Sequence record: KY608965.1
Direction: 5' to 3' (one strand)
Length of the DNA: 64,000 nt
DNA from: Escherichia phage phiEC1
The position numbers and the translations under genes are program-made. Every line of letters starts with the position of its first letter. Position 1 is the stretch's first letter. Under the pieces are notes generated by a model, which ran no database searches, was not told where the DNA came from, and worked only from the letters and a program-made list of their open reading frames with translations. Below are positions 5,232-52,291 of this stretch, one piece after another.

Positions 5232-6916
5232 TAGATTCGTTCCCATTGATGAGTGATATCGCCACCGATTGGACGATAGGAAACACCAGTTTCTTTATCA
5301 GTTAGTACCCATTTACCAGGATTTTTTGTAATCAGAGTAGCCGTTACAGGTTCTGCTACGTCATAACTAATAGAGCCGTCTTGAAGTACACGGCCCATGT
5401 TACGTAATTGCTTAGTCAGAAGTTCCATACCTTTATAATATGCGGCAACCGCTTTAAGTGGATTATTCTTGAAATAACCACCTAATGCAATCCAAATAAT
5501 TGCTACAGCCAAATGATGATACTCGTTAAACGAACTCATCTTTCCATATTTGTAAACTAATGGATTGATGTTAATAGTCACATTACAAGTTGTTTCATCA
5601 ATAGTAAACTGTCCCCAGGTCGGATTAGCATTGAATTCATCATAACCTGAAACAGCATAAAGCACTTTAGCTTCATCATACAATTTTGGCCCGTAAATCT
5701 TGGTTTCACCAAAATATCCACGAGGGTCGATAAACTTGACTTCGCCGTTATCAGTAATCATAGTATTACTGAAGTTTGGGTCACCGTGAATAACAGAGTA
5801 CTGTCCCTGAGAACGGTTATGATAACGAATAAGATGTTCTAAAGCTTGTTTCAACATTGGCTTCAGACGTCCAATCTTAGTGTAGTTCACGTGTGTGATT
5901 TTACCAAATGAATCAATCAATGGCTGAATGCTTTCACAACGATCAATAACTTTCGTATAGAACTCTTTAGTGAAATCACGGCGAACAGTTTCAGGACTTA
6001 CAAAATAAGTGTCTGTGCTGAATTTCAGTGCATCTAAAATTGCATCAACAATTTGTGGACGAGCAAGACTTGATTTGGATTTAATATATTCAAATGCCGG
6101 CTTACCTTTAATACGTTCCATTTCAAAATTATTTTCATTTACCGAAACTAACTGAGGAACTGAATCTGATTTCACTTTCAAATACCATGAAATCTCATCT
6201 TTTTGAAGAGCTCGACCTTGTTCGGTTAACGCGAATTTAGTTACAGTTTCTTCGCCAATTTCAACTGCATTAAAACTACGATTAAGTTCACGAACTTCAT
6301 GAGCTTTTTCAAGTTTAGGCATATCACCTAAATCAATTAGATTCATAAGCTCTGATTTATTGAATGCACTGCCGTAAAGGAATTCTACGAAATCACGTCC
6401 TTTGCAGTATTCGTGAATTTCCTCGTCAGTAGAACCCATGTAGAATTCCCAGTCTTTGAACTGATAAATTCCTACAACATTACCGCCTGTTGAACCTACG
6501 TTAGTGATATTTTCACCATCGAAATTATATCGACATTCATCACCCTTAACATAGATTGCGTTAACATTCCAAGACCATGAACCAAAATCAGGAATAATAT
6601 CACACCAGTTAACAATTACATTATGGCCATCTAAATCTTTGTATAATTTAGCAAGAGCATAAGCAGAACCATACGCTTCATCAACTGTACGAATAGTCAC
6701 ATTGAACCCTTCTTGCTCACAATAAGCTCGAACAGTTTCAGCAAATTTTGAATGAACTACTACAATAATTTCATCTGCGCCAAGGTCAGAATAAATTGTA
6801 TACAAATTGCTCAGAATAGTGTCTTGCTTATAGTTCACAAGAACTTTTGGAATATGGTGAGTAATTGGATATAAACGAGTTGCCAATCCAGCACCAAGAA
6901 TAACAGCTTTTTTCAT
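5231..6916 (-). CDS. bifunctional sugar-1-phosphate nucleotidyltransferase / APH-like anomeric sugar kinase
   Basis: N-terminus VILGAGLATRLYPIT (RmlA/GlmU-type G-x-G-T-R-L-x-P-x-T); C-terminus VIHGDPNFSN...FIDPRGYFG (aminoglycoside/choline-kinase-type catalytic loop); SD GAGGA upstream. Confidence 0.8.
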   Translation of the reverse strand: MKKAVILGAGLATRLYPITHHIPKVLVNYKQDTILSNLYTIYSDLGADEIIVVVHSKFAETVRAYCEQEGFNVTIRTVDEAYGSAYALAKLYKDLDGHNVIVNWCDIIPDFGSWSWNVNAIYVKGDECRYNFDGENITNVGSTGGNVVGIYQFKDWEFYMGSTDEEIHEYCKGRDFVEFLYGSAFNKSELMNLIDLGDMPKLEKAHEVRELNRSFNAVEIGEETVTKFALTEQGRALQKDEISWYLKVKSDSVPQLVSVNENNFEMERIKGKPAFEYIKSKSSLARPQIVDAILDALKFSTDTYFVSPETVRRDFTKEFYTKVIDRCESIQPLIDSFGKITHVNYTKIGRLKPMLKQALEHLIRYHNRSQGQYSVIHGDPNFSNTMITDNGEVKFIDPRGYFGETKIYGPKLYDEAKVLYAVSGYDEFNANPTWGQFTIDETTCNVTININPLVYKYGKMSSFNEYHHLAVAIIWIALGGYFKNNPLKAVAAYYKGMELLTKQLRNMGRVLQDGSISYDVAEPVTATLITKNPGKWVLTDKETGVSYRPIGGDITHQWERI

Positions 6917-6957
6917 GTTGAAGTCCTCATTGGTAAGTAGGTGTATTGTACACTATT

Positions 6958-7101
6958 CTAGTTAAAGCATTCATACTTTGCTTGTAGTCCAATCATAATC
7001 CATCCAATTACAAGTGTTGGAATCATTACTGGAGCCGTTAAGCTCCAGTAGATAGTCATGACAAGCATCAATAGTAAAAGTCCTATTGTTATTGCTTTCA
7101 T
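6958..7101 (-). CDS. small hydrophobic protein (47 aa), not in ORF track
   Basis: MKAITIGLLLLMLVMTIYWSLTAPVMIPTLVIGWIMIGLQAKYECFN; ATG overlaps the SIS-gene TGA (ATGA). Confidence 0.35.
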   Translation of the reverse strand: MKAITIGLLLLMLVMTIYWSLTAPVMIPTLVIGWIMIGLQAKYECFN

Positions 7102-44473: not shown

Positions 44474-44946
44474 TCGGTAATAAAACGTTCAACTTCGTTA
44501 TTCTTGGCCTTTATCTTGTCTTTACGTTCCTGTAAACTACTTTTAACAAGATTAATAATGATGCCTATAGTACCTCCACCAATTATACCACCAATTATAC
44601 TTACGATAGTAGATGCCAATAAGATAGCGATAATATCTGGTATGGCAAAGGCACTTACTTTAGTACTAAAAAACCATACCGACGGTACAAATATAATCCA
44701 TCCTGTTATCCATTGGCACTTATTGAAAAACTTTTCAAGATCAGCTTGAGTTGTTCGTATTACTTCATCGATAGGTTGATATCCATTAATGTATCTGTTC
44801 ACGATAATACCTGCTGGCTGGTCGATTTTAAATTCTTGGCAAATACGTTTCACTAAGTAGGATGGACATCCTGTCCAATCCACCGAATAGTACGAAATAC
44901 CTTCATTGCCGTCGTCAATATTAGACCAATATGTTTTGTTAATCAT
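44455..44946 (-). CDS. membrane protein, FI(K/T)ECR C-terminal family
   Basis: TM segments then C-terminal ...EVERFITECRNLR. Confidence 0.5.
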   Translation of the reverse strand: MINKTYWSNIDDGNEGISYYSVDWTGCPSYLVKRICQEFKIDQPAGIIVNRYINGYQPIDEVIRTTQADLEKFFNKCQWITGWIIFVPSVWFFSTKVSAFAIPDIIAILLASTIVSIIGGIIGGGTIGIIINLVKSSLQERKDKIKAKNNEVERFITECRNLR

Positions 44947-45632
44947 TACCAGCCTTCCATAGGGAATTCCAGATAAACTTGGGCATTGACACGAATTTCA
45001 TTGGTAATCTTTTTAACTCGGTCTGTATTACGAGATACACGTCCGAACCAACGCCATCCATTACTAATTGCACGAGAACCAGTGTGCCATGTTTGCCAAT
45101 CAAACTGAAGAAGAGTACGGTCCGGAGCTTCCCATTTCTCTAGTTCACCTTTTTCAATTTTTTCGAGGACTTCTTTGTGCCACTGGCGATAGATAAGTTC
45201 GCCATCAGGAATCTGACTGAACTCTGCAGTTCCTGTTGCAAAATGAGTAGGACACACGTCAGCGTTAACAAGACCAAGAATATGTTCAGAATGGTAACGA
45301 GGGTTGTCATAATCAGGTTGTCCTGCAGTAATAAAATGTTGACCAACCGGAATATCCGGGCGTGGTACATCATCATGGTGATAACCTGGGATAGCAGGAT
45401 ACCAACCAGGCATCAGCATGTGGACTCGTGAATCAAATACAACCTGGTCTGTGTTCCAATCATCTGGCAAGTTCATGATGAAGCTGCGAGTAATAGGACC
45501 GCCGTTATTATAAGCAAATTCTAAACTACAGTTGAAGAACATAGGCTCGTTCTTGATTTTATCATTAGAAATACCGCCGGCAAAACCACCTACTGCACGA
45601 GCTTGACTATTAAACACTTTAGAACTATTCAT
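44946..45632 (-). CDS. hypothetical protein
   Basis: 228-aa ORF, His/Asp-rich. Confidence 0.55.
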   Translation of the reverse strand: MNSSKVFNSQARAVGGFAGGISNDKIKNEPMFFNCSLEFAYNNGGPITRSFIMNLPDDWNTDQVVFDSRVHMLMPGWYPAIPGYHHDDVPRPDIPVGQHFITAGQPDYDNPRYHSEHILGLVNADVCPTHFATGTAEFSQIPDGELIYRQWHKEVLEKIEKGELEKWEAPDRTLLQFDWQTWHTGSRAISNGWRWFGRVSRNTDRVKKITNEIRVNAQVYLEFPMEGW

Positions 45633-45633
45633 A

Positions 45634-45939
45634 TTATTTTCCTCGACATTCTTTAATGAAATTTTCTAGATTGGTAGATTCAATAGCTTTTTTACGAGCT
45701 TCTGCGTGTTCTTCTTCAGACAATTTACATTTATAATTAACCCAGACGTTATGGTCAAAACTAGTCGTGGCATATAATAACAAAGCCCCGACGAATAATA
45801 AAAATGGTGATAAGAATACAAAACCAGGAACACCATCCATATCGTAAGCCTTTTGTAATACTGCAACAGAAAGAGCTGCGTAAAAAGGTGATGCAAATAT
45901 TGTTAAAAGACCAATTCGGTTGGTTTCGCCTAATTTCAT
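45634..45939 (-). CDS. membrane protein, FI(K/T)ECR C-terminal family
   Basis: TM hairpin then ...LENFIKECRGK. Confidence 0.5.
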   Translation of the reverse strand: MKLGETNRIGLLTIFASPFYAALSVAVLQKAYDMDGVPGFVFLSPFLLFVGALLLYATTSFDHNVWVNYKCKLSEEEHAEARKKAIESTNLENFIKECRGK

Positions 45940-46009: not shown

Positions 46010-46966
46010 TTATTTGAAAGGTTTCACCATATGAAAATTTTCTTTAAACCGTTTGATGTAATCATTTTTGCCGAGCTTATGATACATAGCCACTACTTCA
46101 TAATAGTTCTCGTATGCGTACTCACGGAACCATCCTGACGTGATTGAAGTACAGACTTTTTCTAATGCCATCATGAAACTGGCTTCAGGGTTAATTTCAA
46201 AGTTATTAGGAATCTGAGAACGTTCTAATGCTAGTACACATGATTCTTCGTATACACCGGCCAATTTGACCATTTCCGGTAATGATTCGAACTTCTCGCG
46301 TGAGGTCATGACTTCAGAACCATCTTTCATGTAAAATGTATACGCTGGACGGTCTGTTAGTGCAATGGCTTCGTGAATAGTATCATGGTCATACGTATAG
46401 ATGTCATCTTTAAAGAATGCGCTTTTAGAAGTGTCAAGAACTGGGTGAGCATAGTTCAAGGTTTCTTTCTGGCGTTTCAGCATAATTTCAGTAAGTTCAT
46501 CGTTCAGTGTAACACCTTTACCACGAAGATACTGAATATGGTTCATAGTCTTTAAAAAGAATGGATTATTTTTCTTGAAACGATGGGACATCTTAATTGC
46601 AAGGCACATCTCAGGAGTTGCCCAGTAAAACCCGTTCAAACGGTCTTTAGTCAAATTTTTCTTGGCGTATTTTAAAAGGTCATAAGAAGACGTGAAATCT
46701 TCAGGAGTGAGTTCACCGACTAATTCACGGACATTAGTGATTGCCGGAACAATATATGCTTCAAAATGAGTTTCGCGTCCGTTATGAAAACATTTGAAAA
46801 CCTGGACGTCAGGGTTATCTTGGTGAACATATACACCCATCATTTGATTTTTGAATGCATTCCAAGAACCTTGGTCCGCAATAAAGTCCCAATCGCTATT
46901 TTTGATAGCGCTAGAATCAATAAGGCCGTGATAGTGAAGTGCACGAGAACCAATAACTAACATCAT
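46010..46966 (-). CDS. hypothetical protein
   Basis: 318-aa ORF. Confidence 0.6.
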   Translation of the reverse strand: MMLVIGSRALHYHGLIDSSAIKNSDWDFIADQGSWNAFKNQMMGVYVHQDNPDVQVFKCFHNGRETHFEAYIVPAITNVRELVGELTPEDFTSSYDLLKYAKKNLTKDRLNGFYWATPEMCLAIKMSHRFKKNNPFFLKTMNHIQYLRGKGVTLNDELTEIMLKRQKETLNYAHPVLDTSKSAFFKDDIYTYDHDTIHEAIALTDRPAYTFYMKDGSEVMTSREKFESLPEMVKLAGVYEESCVLALERSQIPNNFEINPEASFMMALEKVCTSITSGWFREYAYENYYEVVAMYHKLGKNDYIKRFKENFHMVKPFK

Positions 46967-46991: not shown

Positions 46992-47243
46992 TTAAATTTC
47001 ACGACATGCGATATTATATTCATCCCAGAGGTCGTCATGTGAAGCCTCTACCAAAGGAACGATTGTACCGTTTATGTCTTCATTATAAGGACAAATTGTA
47101 CAGTGCGCATCTTCGAATCGGATGCCTTTGTGTTCAGATTTTTTATAACGCATATCGAATATCTTTGCAAACTTTTCACGACTAATAGTTTTAGCAACTA
47201 CTTCGGTTCCGATACTTTCGTAATAAATCATTGTAGACTCCAT
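46992..47243 (-). CDS. hypothetical protein
   Basis: 83 aa; Cys/His pairs. Confidence 0.5.
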   Translation of the reverse strand: MESTMIYYESIGTEVVAKTISREKFAKIFDMRYKKSEHKGIRFEDAHCTICPYNEDINGTIVPLVEASHDDLWDEYNIACREI

Positions 47244-47250
47244 TTAATTT

Positions 47251-47277
47251 GATAGGACTACTATAACATAGCCCTAT
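47251..47277 (-). repeat. palindromic early-promoter element, copy 3 (one mismatch)
   Basis: GATAGGACTACTATAACATAGCCCTATC; GTAAAC at 47285-47290. Confidence 0.5.
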
Positions 47278-47293
47278 CTTGTTGTAAACTGTT

Positions 47294-47491
47294 TTAGCAA
47301 GAATAACTAGATGATACCCAGCCTTGAACAGTAATACTATTATTTGATAACGAGATTGCGTCCTGGAGATTCAGACCTGCGTTATCTTCAATCCACAATG
47401 TAACTTCTTCACGTTCTTCGGTTGCAATTTGGAACAGGTTTTCCAGGGCAGCTACTGCCGTACGTACAGCACAATCTAATTCACGAGACAT
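47294..47491 (-). CDS. hypothetical protein
   Basis: 65-aa ORF. Confidence 0.4.
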   Translation of the reverse strand: MSRELDCAVRTAVAALENLFQIATEEREEVTLWIEDNAGLNLQDAISLSNNSITVQGWVSSSYSC

Positions 47492-47500
47492 ATTATTTCC

Positions 47501-47773
47501 TTAACAAGTGTGAGAAGATGCAACCCAACCGCCATCTTCAAGGCTCAGGTTGTAGTCGTATTGGTAAACGTCGGCCCATTCAGCATAGCCGTTTTTTGTA
47601 CAACGTTCAAGATCGGCTTTAAGCTGTCCGGGTGAATGATAGGTTCCACCCATACCATAAGCTGGATACAAGTCGAATGTTGTGTTTTGTTTATCAGCAA
47701 TTTCTTTGGCAGCCTCAATAGCTGCATAGATTTTTGCTACAGCTTCAGCCAGCTCGGTTTGTTCTTTAGACAT
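47501..47773 (-). CDS. hypothetical protein, tandem paralog A
   Basis: 90 aa; C-terminus GGWVASSHTC. Confidence 0.5.
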   Translation of the reverse strand: MSKEQTELAEAVAKIYAAIEAAKEIADKQNTTFDLYPAYGMGGTYHSPGQLKADLERCTKNGYAEWADVYQYDYNLSLEDGGWVASSHTC

Positions 47774-47782
47774 AATGATTCC

Positions 47783-48088
47783 TTAGCACAACGCAGAAGA
47801 CGAAACCCAAGCACCTTCAGTAATAACGTAACCATTACCTTCACGCTTAACATCGCCACCATTATTTTCAATTTCATTTTTCATCCACTGAGATACGATT
47901 TCACCCTTAGGATAATAAGTACGACCGCTACCATAATCACCTACAGAAAATGATACGGCATATTGGTCTGCGATCTTTGTTGCTTCTTCTTCGATACGTT
48001 CAGCTTGATTTAGAAGTTTATAAATTGCATCTGAAGCGGATTTGGCATCATTAAACTCTGGTACTTTAATTTCAATAATCTTACTCAT
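47783..48088 (-). CDS. hypothetical protein, tandem paralog B
   Basis: 101 aa; C-terminus GAWVSSSALC; shared MSK...A.A..KI N-terminus. Confidence 0.5.
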   Translation of the reverse strand: MSKIIEIKVPEFNDAKSASDAIYKLLNQAERIEEEATKIADQYAVSFSVGDYGSGRTYYPKGEIVSQWMKNEIENNGGDVKREGNGYVITEGAWVSSSALC

Positions 48089-48444
48089 TTTCTACATTCC
48101 TTAATAAAGTTTTCGATTGTTTCATTTTCACGTCTAGCTAGGAGTTCATTATAACTAATCATTTGAGAAGCGTAAACCTTTTTATTTTTCTTGTTATGGT
48201 TTATAAAATCGTAGTAAAAATAGACTACAGTACAAAAGGATGCTATTGATGCAAAGGCTTGGGTATACCGTAAGTCCTGCCATTGGTCTGTGAATCCACC
48301 AGTGTTACCTATAAATCCTAACACAACGCCGTCAATAAGAAATCCAACTAATCCAAAGGCAAATCCCATGCCGGCGCTCATGATAAAAATTAAAATATTC
48401 TCACCAAGAGAAGGCCATACGGTTAAGAGTTGAGGCTTTTGCAT
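48085..48444 (-). CDS. membrane protein, FI(K/T)ECR C-terminal family
   Basis: TM segments then ...IENFIKECRK. Confidence 0.5.
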   Translation of the reverse strand: MQKPQLLTVWPSLGENILIFIMSAGMGFAFGLVGFLIDGVVLGFIGNTGGFTDQWQDLRYTQAFASIASFCTVVYFYYDFINHNKKNKKVYASQMISYNELLARRENETIENFIKECRK

Positions 48445-48848
48445 CTTATTTCCTTAACGAATTCCATAGCTTCTTCATATTCATACTTTTTAACAGCTTC
48501 ATCATACTGAGCTTGGGCTTTTGCGCACTGAACTTTCCACTCGCGAACTCGAGCTCTGTGATGACGGCCTTGGTGCCAATATCCTGCCCAATTAATAGGC
48601 ATTAATAAAAACGGTACAATAAGTGGTGCGACGAACATTAATGAAAACGCTGCATCAGACGATATAACTTTATTGGAATCTAAAATAGCTCCTATAATCA
48701 TAAAGATTAAAAATGCTAAAGCTAAAATAGGGCCAAATAGTACTTCGTTTGGGATTAATTTACGTTTGTATTCGTATGCCCAGGGCTTAATTGGCATGTA
48801 CAGGGTTGGCTTTGACATATTCTCTACATTCCATAATAAATTGCTCAA
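48423..48848 (-). CDS. membrane protein (related C-terminal EFVKEIRCK)
   Basis: 141 aa, 2 TM segments. Confidence 0.5.
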   Translation of the reverse strand: MSNLLWNVENMSKPTLYMPIKPWAYEYKRKLIPNEVLFGPILALAFLIFMIIGAILDSNKVISSDAAFSLMFVAPLIVPFLLMPINWAGYWHQGRHHRARVREWKVQCAKAQAQYDEAVKKYEYEEAMEFVKEIRCKSLNS

Positions 48849-49389
48849 GGATTAAATTGTTAGTGAAATTAGGACTAACAACCATAGTTTCATAAAGCGC
48901 ATCAATAGCACTTAAAGCATCAACTCTTTTAAGCAAAGGCTCGCCTTCATACATAGTTTCAGAATCGACGATTAACGTAAAGTAATATTTTTTATTATCG
49001 ACTAGAACTTCAGTATCGATATAAAACATATTAGACCTCAGAAGCTTATCTCTAAAACCATAATAATCTTCAGAGCGTTCGCTGATATATTCCCATTCAG
49101 TGTTTAAACAACAAACAGACCATGTAGGAGCAACAAAATCGGTGAATCTAATATCATGGTCTGCAACTAGTTTAGCAATAGCTCCGATATCATGAATCAT
49201 AATACCTGGGGCTAATAAAGATTTTCTGCTATGGCCAGCCGTTTTCTCAGTGGTCTCATAAGAAGCTGACCAGTACCATTTACGTCCAGTTGCAACATAT
49301 CGTAATGAATCAACTAAAGACGTAGGTGGATTTACCTTATTTCGGAACTCTTCGAACATTGAGTCAATATCATTATTTTGGTTTCGCAT
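48787..49389 (-). CDS. hypothetical protein
   Basis: Start MRNQNNDIDSM with SD AAGGAG. Confidence 0.5.
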   Translation of the reverse strand: MRNQNNDIDSMFEEFRNKVNPPTSLVDSLRYVATGRKWYWSASYETTEKTAGHSRKSLLAPGIMIHDIGAIAKLVADHDIRFTDFVAPTWSVCCLNTEWEYISERSEDYYGFRDKLLRSNMFYIDTEVLVDNKKYYFTLIVDSETMYEGEPLLKRVDALSAIDALYETMVVSPNFTNNLILEQFIMECREYVKANPVHAN

Positions 49390-49404
49390 GTTAACTCCTT
49401 TATT

Positions 49405-49430
49405 ATCCAAAAGGAGGACAAAAGTCCTCC
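49405..49430 (-). terminator. rho-independent terminator
   Basis: GGAGGAC-UUUU-GUCCUCC hairpin followed by UUUUGG. Confidence 0.6.
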
Positions 49431-52134: not shown

Positions 52135-52211
<77 letters not shown>

Positions 52212-52217
52212 AATATA

Positions 52218-52291
52218 TGACCCAGACCAGATTCGAACTGGTAACCTTTCCCTTATGAGGGGACTGCTGCTAACCATTGAGCTACAGGGCC
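52218..52291 (-). tRNA. tRNA with CAT anticodon (Met or lysidine-type Ile)
   Basis: Hand-folded: T arm ACCAG-TTCGAAT-CTGGT, anticodon loop CTCATAA, D-loop with GG; one acceptor-stem mismatch; 74 nt. Confidence 0.65.

What the first reader, a model, noticed from the sequence alone, without database searches (positions are those of the whole stretch)
47501..48088. Tandem paralogous small proteins with conserved termini
Adjacent 90- and 101-aa ORFs both start MSK..., contain a Gly-rich middle (YGMGGTYHSPG / YGSGRTYYPKG) and end GGWVASSHTC / GAWVSSSALC. This looks like a local duplication followed by divergence.
Basis: seen in the sequence. Interest (0 to 1): 0.45.

Follow-up and report, generated by a model that had tools for sequence, protein, structure and literature searches.

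The report
Cys-tailed small proteins flanking phage nucleotidyltransferase
The two look-alike small genes are real, ancient paralogues (a third sits beside them) from a large, undescribed family of small acidic phage proteins that end in the tag W-x-S-S-S-x-x-Cys and almost always lie next to a MenT-like nucleotidyltransferase gene, which points to an uncharacterised enzyme-plus-tagged-partner module in big lytic phages.

Summary
ORFs A (47501-47773) and B (47783-48088), both on the minus strand, align far above shuffled controls (z=9.7). A third ORF, C (47294-47491), carries the same C-terminal tail.

The duplication is ancient, not local and recent. A and B are 24% identical and share no DNA similarity. 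Each has 35-63% identical orthologues in the same order (B-A-C) across several T4-like genera.

The window is an RB69-like Mosigvirus. The genes belong to a family of 582 50%-identity clusters of 60-160 aa acidic proteins. It has no Pfam model and no fold relative, and it is essentially absent from 185,579 bacterial and archaeal genomes. Its hallmark is the tail G-x-W-x-[S/A/P]-S-S-x-x-C-COOH, with W, S, S and C about 100% invariant.

My best reading is that the small proteins are tail-tagged partners of this enzyme, either substrates or pseudo-substrate inhibitors. That mechanism is inferred, not shown.

The parts
47783..48088 (-). Gene B: 101-aa small acidic protein, 'YGSGRTYYP' subtype of the family, ending GAWVSSSALC. 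Its start overlaps the stop of the e.3-like gene (ATGA).
   Evidence: ORF; family HMM E=7e-22; phrog_899 E=1.8e-22; AF2 pLDDT 91.8; frameshifted in the RB69 reference.
47501..47773 (-). Gene A: 90-aa small acidic protein, 'YGMGGTY' subtype, ending GGWVASSHTC. A 9-nt spacer with a GGAA ribosome-binding site follows B.
   Evidence: family HMM E=5e-25; phrog_899 E=1.4e-18.
47294..47491 (-). Gene C: 65-aa protein that shares only the C-terminal tail (QGWVSSSYSC). Its body is different (phrog_4882).
   Evidence: orthologues in the same position in other T4-like genera.
47786..47809 (-). Codons of the B tail, W-V-S-S-S-A-L-C (last 8 residues before the stop).
   Evidence: tail logo from 316 distinct proteins.
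47504..47527 (-). Codons of the A tail, W-V-A-S-S-H-T-C.
47297..47320 (-). Codons of the C tail, W-V-S-S-S-Y-S-C.
46992..47243 (-). 83-aa ORF (like RB69 ORF135c) between C and the enzyme gene. It is lineage-restricted, has no tail, and is not a core part of the module.
   Evidence: phrog_3723, unknown function; found only in close T4-like relatives.
46010..46966 (-). 318-aa DUF7277+DUF7275 protein: a MenT/AbiEii/ANT-like nucleotidyltransferase fold plus a highly conserved helical domain. It is the conserved neighbour of the tail proteins.
47260..47288 (-). Sigma-70-like promoter consensus match (TTTACA-17-TATAGT, with TG) between C and the ORF135c-like and enzyme genes. This is a consensus match only.
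   Evidence: the number of sites in the region is not above the shuffled expectation.

Best explanation
A, B and C are members of a phage-specific set of small, acidic client proteins. They are defined by a C-terminal tag, G-x-W-x-[S/A/P]-S-S-x-x-Cys-COOH, and they work with the nucleotidyltransferase-fold protein encoded just downstream (46010-46966).

Shown: the paralogy; the invariant tag on several different protein bodies; the near-obligatory, co-oriented adjacency to the DUF7277/DUF7275 gene across unrelated phage lineages; and the MenT/ANT-like fold and intact catalytic carboxylates of that enzyme.

Inferred: the tag is the docking and acceptor element for the enzyme. The tail sits in the acceptor site that holds a tRNA 3'-OH in MenT toxins or a drug hydroxyl in ANT(2'')/LnuA. 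There, one of the two invariant serines (or the terminal Cys) is nucleotidylylated or otherwise modified. Several different small effector or adaptor proteins would then share one modifying enzyme.

The biological role is probably early host takeover or counter-defence linked to RNA or tRNA ends. In several lineages the enzyme gene lies near RNA-ligase or polynucleotide-kinase genes, and here it lies about 4 kb from two phage tRNA genes.

The confidence given is for the specific substrate/tag reading. That the small proteins are functional partners of the enzyme in some way I put at about 0.7.
For: - **Paralogy.** z=9.7 against shuffles.
- **Family size and signature.** 582 clusters at E<=1e-3, all 67-143 aa in the top 150, with the match running to the C-terminus.
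- **Tail logo from 316 distinct proteins.** W 100%, S(-4) 100%, S(-3) 99.7%, terminal C 100%; median pI 4.46.
- **Same tail on different bodies.** C matches the family HMM only in the tail. With tails removed, 238 proteins fall into 17 BLAST clusters, the largest being 171, 26 and 16.
- **Linkage, sampled by small protein.** In the IMG/VR loci picked by the small protein, every locus that kept enough sequence downstream has the enzyme gene directly downstream on the same strand.
- **Linkage, sampled by enzyme.** 71-73 of 80 loci have 1-5 tail ORFs within 2.5 kb upstream, and none lies on the other strand. With a relaxed motif, 96 of 105 distinct enzymes have at least one. One more, Stenotrophomonas phage Yut2, has two tail genes immediately downstream.
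- **Linkage survives changes of neighbourhood.** It holds in T4-like Straboviridae, ~370-kb jumbo contigs, Otagovirus phiPsa374, Phapecoctavirus anhysbys and Menderavirus.
- **Enzyme fold and motifs.**
- **RNA-repair neighbours.**
- **Precedent from established knowledge.** NTase-fold enzymes nucleotidylylate hydroxyls of drugs (ANT(2''), LnuA) and of proteins (MNT AMPylates HEPN; GlnD and GlnE).
Against: - There is no direct evidence of binding or modification, and I could not run a complex prediction.
- In the AF2 model of B the tail is not a floppy appendage. It forms a strand plus a short helix of the fold (E93-96, H97-100; pLDDT 88 for residues 91-100), so access to an active site is uncertain.
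- The Ser-to-Cys spacing varies. Short tails such as W-H-S-S-S-C and W-V-Q-S-S-C occur, and internal copies of the motif occur. This argues against one rigid chemistry.
- A few enzymes have no detectable tail gene (L081, L098, L130, DSS3_VP1, and the short actinophage and Vibrio forms).
- Much of the synteny among T4-like phages is inherited by descent, so the count of independent linkage events is far smaller than the count of loci.
- Gene B is frameshifted in the RB69 reference, so at least one member is dispensable in the laboratory.
Confidence: 0.4

Rival explanations
1. The small proteins are antitoxin-like pseudo-substrate inhibitors or timers of a MenT-like toxin. The acidic body and tail would mimic a tRNA acceptor end and plug the enzyme's electropositive cleft, as the short antitoxin MenA1 blocks MenT1. 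The phage could then control when its nucleotidyltransferase acts on host tRNAs.
For: - The layout (small upstream gene or genes plus a co-oriented NTase) matches MenAT1/AbiE.
- MenA1 is a short antitoxin, usually encoded upstream, that blocks the MenT1 active sites (PMC10435456).
- The family is acidic, with median pI 4.46.
Against: - Up to six different tail proteins per enzyme, with BLAST-unlinkable bodies, is unexpected for a single inhibitor.
- There is no sequence or fold similarity to any solved protein, MenA1 included.
- The family is virtually absent from 185,579 bacterial and archaeal genomes, so it is not a borrowed bacterial toxin-antitoxin pair.
- Absolute invariance of the nucleophilic residues S, S and C looks more like a site of chemistry than a docking surface.
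Confidence: 0.28
2. The tail serves a function independent of the neighbouring enzyme. Possibilities are a metal- or redox-active or oligomerisation element (Trp/Ser/Cys unit), a host-directed binding motif or degron, or a targeting signal analogous to the N-terminal capsid-targeting sequence of the T4 internal proteins. In that case the adjacency only reflects co-regulation in an early accessory-gene block.
For: - In the AF2 model the tail is part of the fold.
- Motif-like units recur internally in some members: 13 of 316 versus 0.2 expected, and in all members of the short-tail class. This fits a small structural or ligand-binding unit.
- The region is a mosaic accessory block that T4 lacks between e.2 and e.3.
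- Internal head protein genes lie a few kb away.
Against: - The adjacency persists in phage groups whose other neighbours differ entirely, and it even survives inversion of gene order in Yut2.
- No tail ORF was found anywhere else in 1.75 Mb of fetched loci.
- Short enzyme homologues that lack tail genes also lack Cys272 of the enzyme, although this correlation is phylogenetically confounded.
Confidence: 0.2
3. One reading: a simple, recent local tandem duplication that is drifting apart, with no further significance.
For: The genes are adjacent and have similar starts, middles and ends.
Against: - A and B are only 24% identical and show no DNA similarity.
- Both types have separate orthologues across genera in a conserved order.
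- The family is huge and the tail is under strong purifying selection.
Confidence: 0.02

Closest known systems
MenAT1 (MenA1 antitoxin / MenT1 toxin) and the wider AbiE/MenAT DUF1814 nucleotidyltransferase toxin-antitoxin systems
   Different: - The enzyme is filed by Pfam as DUF7277/DUF7275, not DUF1814, and carries a large extra conserved helical domain.
- The small proteins have no similarity to any solved protein and come in arrays of 1-6.
- They carry an invariant C-terminal W..SS..C tag.
- The module is found in virulent phages, not in bacterial genomes.
HEPN-MNT type VII toxin-antitoxin systems and other protein-nucleotidylylating NTases (GlnD, GlnE)
   Same: An NTase-fold enzyme acts on a partner protein encoded next to it by transferring an NMP to a side-chain hydroxyl. 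This is from established knowledge and is the mechanistic model I propose for the tail serines.
   Different: In those systems the acceptor is a Tyr inside a folded domain, not a C-terminal Ser/Cys tag. There is no homology between the partner proteins. Modification was not tested here.
Aminoglycoside and lincosamide nucleotidyltransferases ANT(2'') and LnuA
   Different: Those enzymes act on small-molecule drugs and have no partner proteins. The window enzyme is twice as large.
T4 internal proteins (IPI, IPII, IPIII) with a shared capsid-targeting sequence
   Same: The concept is the same: a set of small, rapidly diverging phage proteins that keep one short invariant terminal tag read by one phage machine. 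This is an analogy from established knowledge.
   Different: That tag is N-terminal and is removed by the prohead protease. There is no sequence relationship, and no evidence that the tail proteins are packaged.
Ribosomally made, post-translationally modified peptides (RiPPs): precursors that form lanthionine or AviCys rings, and PEARL scaffold peptides with a C-terminal Cys
   Same: The long tail ends S-x-x-C-COOH, the arrangement from which AviCys or lanthionine rings are made. In some pathways scaffold peptides carry a C-terminal Cys that is then modified (established knowledge). Ser, Ser and Cys are invariant.
   Different: - No LanB/C/M/KC/L, LanD, radical-SAM or PEARL gene is nearby.
- The proteins are folded 60-160-aa domains, not leader-core peptides.
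- The Ser-Cys spacing is not constant.

Membership tests
MenAT/AbiE (DUF1814) NTase toxin-antitoxin systems | The toxin has the DUF1814/MenT nucleotidyltransferase fold with its catalytic carboxylates. | tested here: met
MenAT/AbiE (DUF1814) NTase toxin-antitoxin systems | Sequence membership of the toxin in Pfam DUF1814 (AbiEii). | tested here: not met
   A Pfam scan at E<=0.1 returns only DUF7277 and DUF7275. There are no NCBIfam hits, and PADLOC returns only one weak hit (Cas8b, E=0.0093).
MenAT/AbiE (DUF1814) NTase toxin-antitoxin systems | The antitoxin is homologous to MenA1 or to AbiEi/MenA3 (COG5340). | tested here: not met
MenAT/AbiE (DUF1814) NTase toxin-antitoxin systems | A bicistronic small-gene-then-NTase operon. 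| tested here: met
   Co-oriented and adjacent in 96 of 105 distinct enzymes, but with 1-6 small genes rather than one.
MenAT/AbiE (DUF1814) NTase toxin-antitoxin systems | Resident in bacterial or archaeal genomes or their mobile elements as an addiction or defence module. | tested here: not met
   One weak hit on a 1.2-kb MAG contig among 185,579 species genomes. All other occurrences are on large viral contigs or lytic phage genomes.
MenAT/AbiE (DUF1814) NTase toxin-antitoxin systems | The NTase is toxic and the small protein neutralises it. | not testable with these tools
   Needs expression assays.
RiPP precursors (lanthipeptide or AviCys type) | A dedicated dehydratase/cyclase or LanD-type decarboxylase is encoded nearby. 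| tested here: not met
   Neighbouring proteins have no such Pfam, NCBIfam or PHROG assignments.
RiPP precursors (lanthipeptide or AviCys type) | A core motif with fixed Ser/Thr-to-Cys spacing at the C-terminus. | tested here: inconclusive
   S-x-x-C-COOH holds in essentially every strict-tail member: Ser at -3 in 315 of 316, Thr in the other. Short variants (W-V-Q-S-S-C, W-D-G-S-S-C) break the spacing.
PHROG phrog_899 / phrog_4882 (unknown function) | A significant profile match. | tested here: met
   A E=1.4e-18 and B E=1.8e-22 to phrog_899; C E=1.1e-36 to phrog_4882. Neither family has an annotated function.
Known anti-defence nucleotide sponges (Acb2, Tad1, Tad2) | Sequence or fold similarity to those families. 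| tested here: not met
   No Pfam hit above threshold and only one weak PADLOC hit (PDC-S49, E=0.01). No structural match in the PDB.

The most novel reading that the evidence does not exclude
The tail is a genetically encoded modification tag. The DUF7277/DUF7275 enzyme would covalently modify the invariant Ser-Ser-x-x-Cys end of several different small phage proteins. Candidate chemistries are Ser-O-nucleotidylylation, possibly followed by elimination and Cys addition to give a C-terminal thioether ring, or release of a Cys-derived product. That would be a previously unknown phage-encoded protein-tagging or PTM system, spread over hundreds of T4-like, jumbo and other lytic phages.
Probability: 0.25. 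Interest if true: 0.85.

Novelty: new variant of a known kind. Interest (0 to 1): 0.62.

Why it matters
Homologues of the enzyme occur in 733 deposited phage genomes and more than 2,100 protein clusters. The tail-protein family has 582 50%-identity clusters. Neither has any annotated function, a Pfam entry for the small proteins, a solved structure, or a paper in the searchable library.

An invariant 8-residue C-terminal tag shared by up to six different small proteins next to one MenT-like enzyme is a clean, testable handle on a block of 'hypothetical' early genes in model-adjacent phages (RB69, JS98, phiPsa374). If the enzyme acts on tRNA ends, as MenT does, the module bears on phage-host conflicts over translation. 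If it modifies the tails, it is a new protein-tagging chemistry. In either case the tag gives a simple search rule for annotating these genes.

Tried and rejected
- **Family libraries.** Pfam, NCBIfam and PADLOC scans of A, B and C gave nothing meaningful.
- **PDB sequence searches.** Searches with the enzyme and with the family profile gave nothing real.
- **Broad alignment as a locus query.** A strict DNA pattern for YGMGGTYYP gave only 13 loci. A narrower alignment worked.
- **Double-glycine leader or secreted peptide.** Rejected: only the G at -2 from W is conserved, and there is no signal peptide.
- **Recent duplication.** Rejected.
- **Fusion proteins joining a tail protein to the enzyme.** None found. 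The long enzyme ORFs are start-codon artefacts or unrelated N-terminal extensions.
- **ORF132c-like 228-aa neighbour as a third core component.** Rejected: jackhmmer finds it only in enterobacterial and Aeromonas T4-like loci.
- **T4 nrdC.11 'nucleotidyltransferase' as the T4 counterpart.** It is not homologous. T4 has e.2 abutting e.3 with no module there. The rest of T4 was not scanned.
- **Cys272 of the enzyme co-varying with tail presence.** It is suggestive, but only a few independent lineages are involved, so I give it little weight.
- **Literature.** Searches for DUF7275/DUF7277, the PHROG ids, RB69 ORF names and phage MenT/AbiEii found nothing relevant.

Full report
**1. The observation**

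Local alignment scores 73 against 26.4 +/- 4.8 for 2000 shuffles (z=9.7, none reached it). Directly downstream lies a third ORF, C (47294..47491, 65 aa), ending QGWVSSSYSC. It shares only the last ~16 residues with A and B.

The three genes are separated by 9-nt spacers that carry GGAA ribosome-binding sites. They show no significant DNA similarity to each other. The tail serines use both TCN and AGY codons, so what is conserved is the peptide, not the DNA.

**2. Where this is**

The window is an RB69-like Mosigvirus, 95-99% identical to many Escherichia and Shigella phages. In RB69 the genes are ORF139c/138c (B), ORF137c (A) and ORF136c (C). They lie in a block, ORF132c-139c, inserted between e.2 and e.3. 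In T4, e.2 directly abuts e.3.

In the RB69 reference, B carries a 1-nt insertion and a Ser-to-Pro change in the tail. It is therefore a pseudogene or a sequencing error there. Two tRNA genes lie about 4 kb upstream.

**3. The family**

Word-indexed searches found only close relatives plus a few 43-61% identical proteins. A profile of nine sequences searched against 1.84 billion representative proteins found 582 clusters at E<=1e-3. All of the best 150 are 67-143 aa, and in almost all of them the match runs to (or within a residue or two of) the last residue.

The signature has four parts:
- an N-terminal amphipathic helix ending (I/F)-A-D-E-x-G;
- a strand region, F-x-F...Y-G-M-G-G-T-Y-Y-P (B-type: Y-G-S-G-R-T-Y-Y-P);
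- an acidic, variable linker;
- the tail.

Over 316 distinct tail proteins the logo is G(-9) G/x(-8) W(-7, 100%) [VIMLNQR](-6) [S 67% / A 23% / P 8%](-5) S(-4, 100%) S(-3, 99.7%) x x C(0, 100%). The median length is 90 aa and the median pI is 4.46. A few members have one extra residue after Cys.

A, B and C have no Pfam, NCBIfam or PADLOC assignment beyond weak sub-threshold hits. PHROGs files A and B in phrog_899 and C in phrog_4882, both of unknown function.

A scan of one genome from each of 185,579 bacterial and archaeal species found a single weak hit on a 1.2-kb MAG contig. This is therefore a family of large virulent phages, not a bacterial one.

**4. The duplication is ancient**

A and B are 24% identical. 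A-type orthologues occur at 42-57% identity and B-type orthologues at 32-63%. They appear in the order B-A-(x)-C-enzyme in several T4-like genera, and singly in Aeromonas CC2-like, jumbo and Phapecoctavirus genomes. Thirty-four loci hold both types.

**5. The tail is a portable tag**

The body of C is unrelated to the family HMM. With the last ten residues removed, 238 tail proteins from the fetched loci fall into 17 BLAST clusters:
- a main cluster of 171;
- a 26-member class with a short tail, G-x-I-W-x-P-S-S-C, plus an internal W-x-S-S-S-C-Y-G-E unit;
- the 16-member C class;
- several 140-160-aa classes.

Extra internal W..S[SG]C units occur in 13 of 316 strict members, against 0.2 expected from shuffles.

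**6. The conserved neighbour**

In a ~371-kb JGI contig, an A-like gene and a second tail gene precede a 299-aa protein homologous to window 46010..46966. I tested this linkage from both directions.

Sampled by the small protein: in the IMG/VR loci found with the small-protein pattern, every locus that kept enough sequence downstream has the homologue directly downstream on the same strand.

Sampled by the enzyme alone: 71 of 80 loci have 1-5 family or tail ORFs within 2.5 kb upstream. Two more do once the match offset is corrected, and none lies on the other strand. With a relaxed tail pattern, 96 of 105 distinct enzyme sequences have at least one, and up to six. In Stenotrophomonas phage Yut2 the two tail genes sit immediately downstream instead.

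The pairing holds in Otagovirus phiPsa374 (three tail genes) and Phapecoctavirus anhysbys (three), where the other neighbours are different.

The exceptions are:
- a few T4-like or jumbo loci (L081, L098/L130);
- DSS3_VP1;
- the short (248-263 aa) homologues of Streptomyces, Gordonia and Vibrio phages. These lack the enzyme's Cys272 and have a different ~100-aa neighbour.

**7. What the neighbour is**

The 318-aa protein is Pfam DUF7277 + DUF7275 and phrog_2141. It has more than 2,100 homologous clusters and occurs in 733 phage records.

Its invariant residues include G6 S7 ... D25 x D27 ... E69, the pattern of a Pol-beta-type nucleotidyltransferase. Many more lie in the helical domain: K125, H128, H174, H194-D195, H198, E248-R249, and K270-x-C272-x-S-x-T-S-G.

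MenT toxins add nucleotides to tRNA 3' ends, and MenT1 is blocked by a short upstream-encoded antitoxin, MenA1 (PMC10435456).

In several lineages the enzyme gene lies within 5-10 kb of polynucleotide kinase or RNA-ligase genes: the jumbo clade, L020, L038, L097, BillNye, Sham and DSS3_VP1. This is suggestive but not decisive in mosaic early regions.

**8. How it most likely works**

Shown: an invariant C-terminal tag on several kinds of small acidic protein, and near-obligatory linkage to a MenT/ANT-like nucleotidyltransferase with intact catalytic residues.

Inferred: the tag is what the enzyme reads. I favour the view that the tail occupies the enzyme's acceptor site. My rough weights are:
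- a true substrate, with Ser-OH or Cys nucleotidylylated or otherwise modified: about 0.4;
- a pseudo-substrate inhibitor or timer in the MenA1 manner: about 0.28;
- a tail function independent of the enzyme (metal or redox unit, host-binding motif, targeting signal): about 0.2.

The substrate reading is preferred for three reasons. The same tag sits on unrelated bodies. The nucleophilic residues are the invariant ones. Relatives of the enzyme transfer NMPs to hydroxyls of non-RNA acceptors.

Against it: the tail is modelled as part of the fold, and the Ser-Cys spacing is not fixed.

**9. Novelty**

No paper in the searchable library mentions DUF7275/DUF7277, the PHROG ids or the RB69 ORFs. 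The MenT, AbiE and jumbo-phage literature I read does not describe this module.

The module resembles a MenAT-type pair in layout and enzyme fold. It fails sequence membership, antitoxin homology and genomic habitat. It also adds two unprecedented features: arrays of partners and a C-terminal Cys tag. I therefore class it as a new variant of a known kind, with a 0.25 chance of being a genuinely new protein-tagging system.

Noticed in passing
window 45634-45939, 48085-48444, 48423-48848, 48787-49410 (all minus strand): A second set of neighbours shares a different C-terminal motif, F-[IV]-K-E-C-R...NFIKECRGK...NFIKECRK...FVKEIRCKSLNS...FIMECREYVK... Three of the four have hydrophobic, membrane-like segments. 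T4 e.3, e.4 and e.5 end the same way (FVIDCRKIK, FVKESRCKSQS, FVKECREYVK), so e.3-e.5 and the ORF133c-like gene look like another terminal-motif paralogue family.
   Followed up: partly
L002 (RB69 NC_004928) 6685-6995, equivalent to window 47783-48088: The RB69 reference has a 1-nt insertion that splits gene B into ORF139c and ORF138c, plus a Ser-to-Pro change inside the tail (WVSSPALC). This is either pseudogenisation in the lab strain or a sequencing error.
   Followed up: yes
window 44946-45632 (minus strand): A 228-aa ORF132c-like protein (phrog_1843, unknown function) lies 1-2.5 kb downstream of the enzyme gene in enterobacterial and Aeromonas T4-like phages only. By eye its sequence has an H-x-D...H pattern reminiscent of cupin or 2OG-Fe(II) oxygenases; this was not tested.
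   Followed up: partly
L142 4399-4734, L149 3633-3968, L143 4100-4393, L146 4217-4612, L147 2860-3156: The short enzyme homologues of Streptomyces, Gordonia, Roseobacter and Vibrio phages lack tail proteins. Each has an adjacent ~100-130-aa protein with a shared G-Y-Y-x-S-W...W-D-G...V-E-V-x-P motif, possibly a different partner family for the same enzyme.
   Followed up: no
window 46010-46966, residues 272-279 of the 318-aa protein: The enzyme's invariant segment C272-T-S-I-T-S-G-W279 has the same Cys-to-Trp distance (7 residues) and the same Ser/Thr-rich make-up as the tail W-x-S-S-S-x-x-C read backwards. Cys272 is V or I in the homologues that lack tail genes. This may be coincidence, or a hint of a pairing or thiol-based interaction.
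   Followed up: partly
family members P0068, P0062, P0070, P0117 and the short-tail class (e.g. L141 2913-3131, L086 4709-4954): Some members repeat the tail unit internally, for example RWESSSEGWESSSEGWVSSSSQC and FEDWQSSSCYGEGDD...GVWHSSSC. The W-x-S-S-(S)-C unit can therefore be repeated and can sit inside the chain.
   Followed up: partly
L148 (Stenotrophomonas phage Yut2) 4207-4745: Gene order is flipped here: two tail proteins lie immediately downstream of the enzyme gene instead of upstream.
   Followed up: yes
window 52135-52291 (minus strand): Two phage tRNA genes, tRNA-Arg(TCT) and tRNA-Met/Ile2(CAT), lie about 4 kb upstream of the module. In other lineages the enzyme gene lies near pnk, rnlA or RNA-ligase genes.
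   Followed up: partly
L145 (T4) 436-1446: T4 nrdC.11 is annotated as a nucleotidyltransferase. It shows no detectable similarity to the window enzyme (phmmer, no hit at E<=10).
   Followed up: yes
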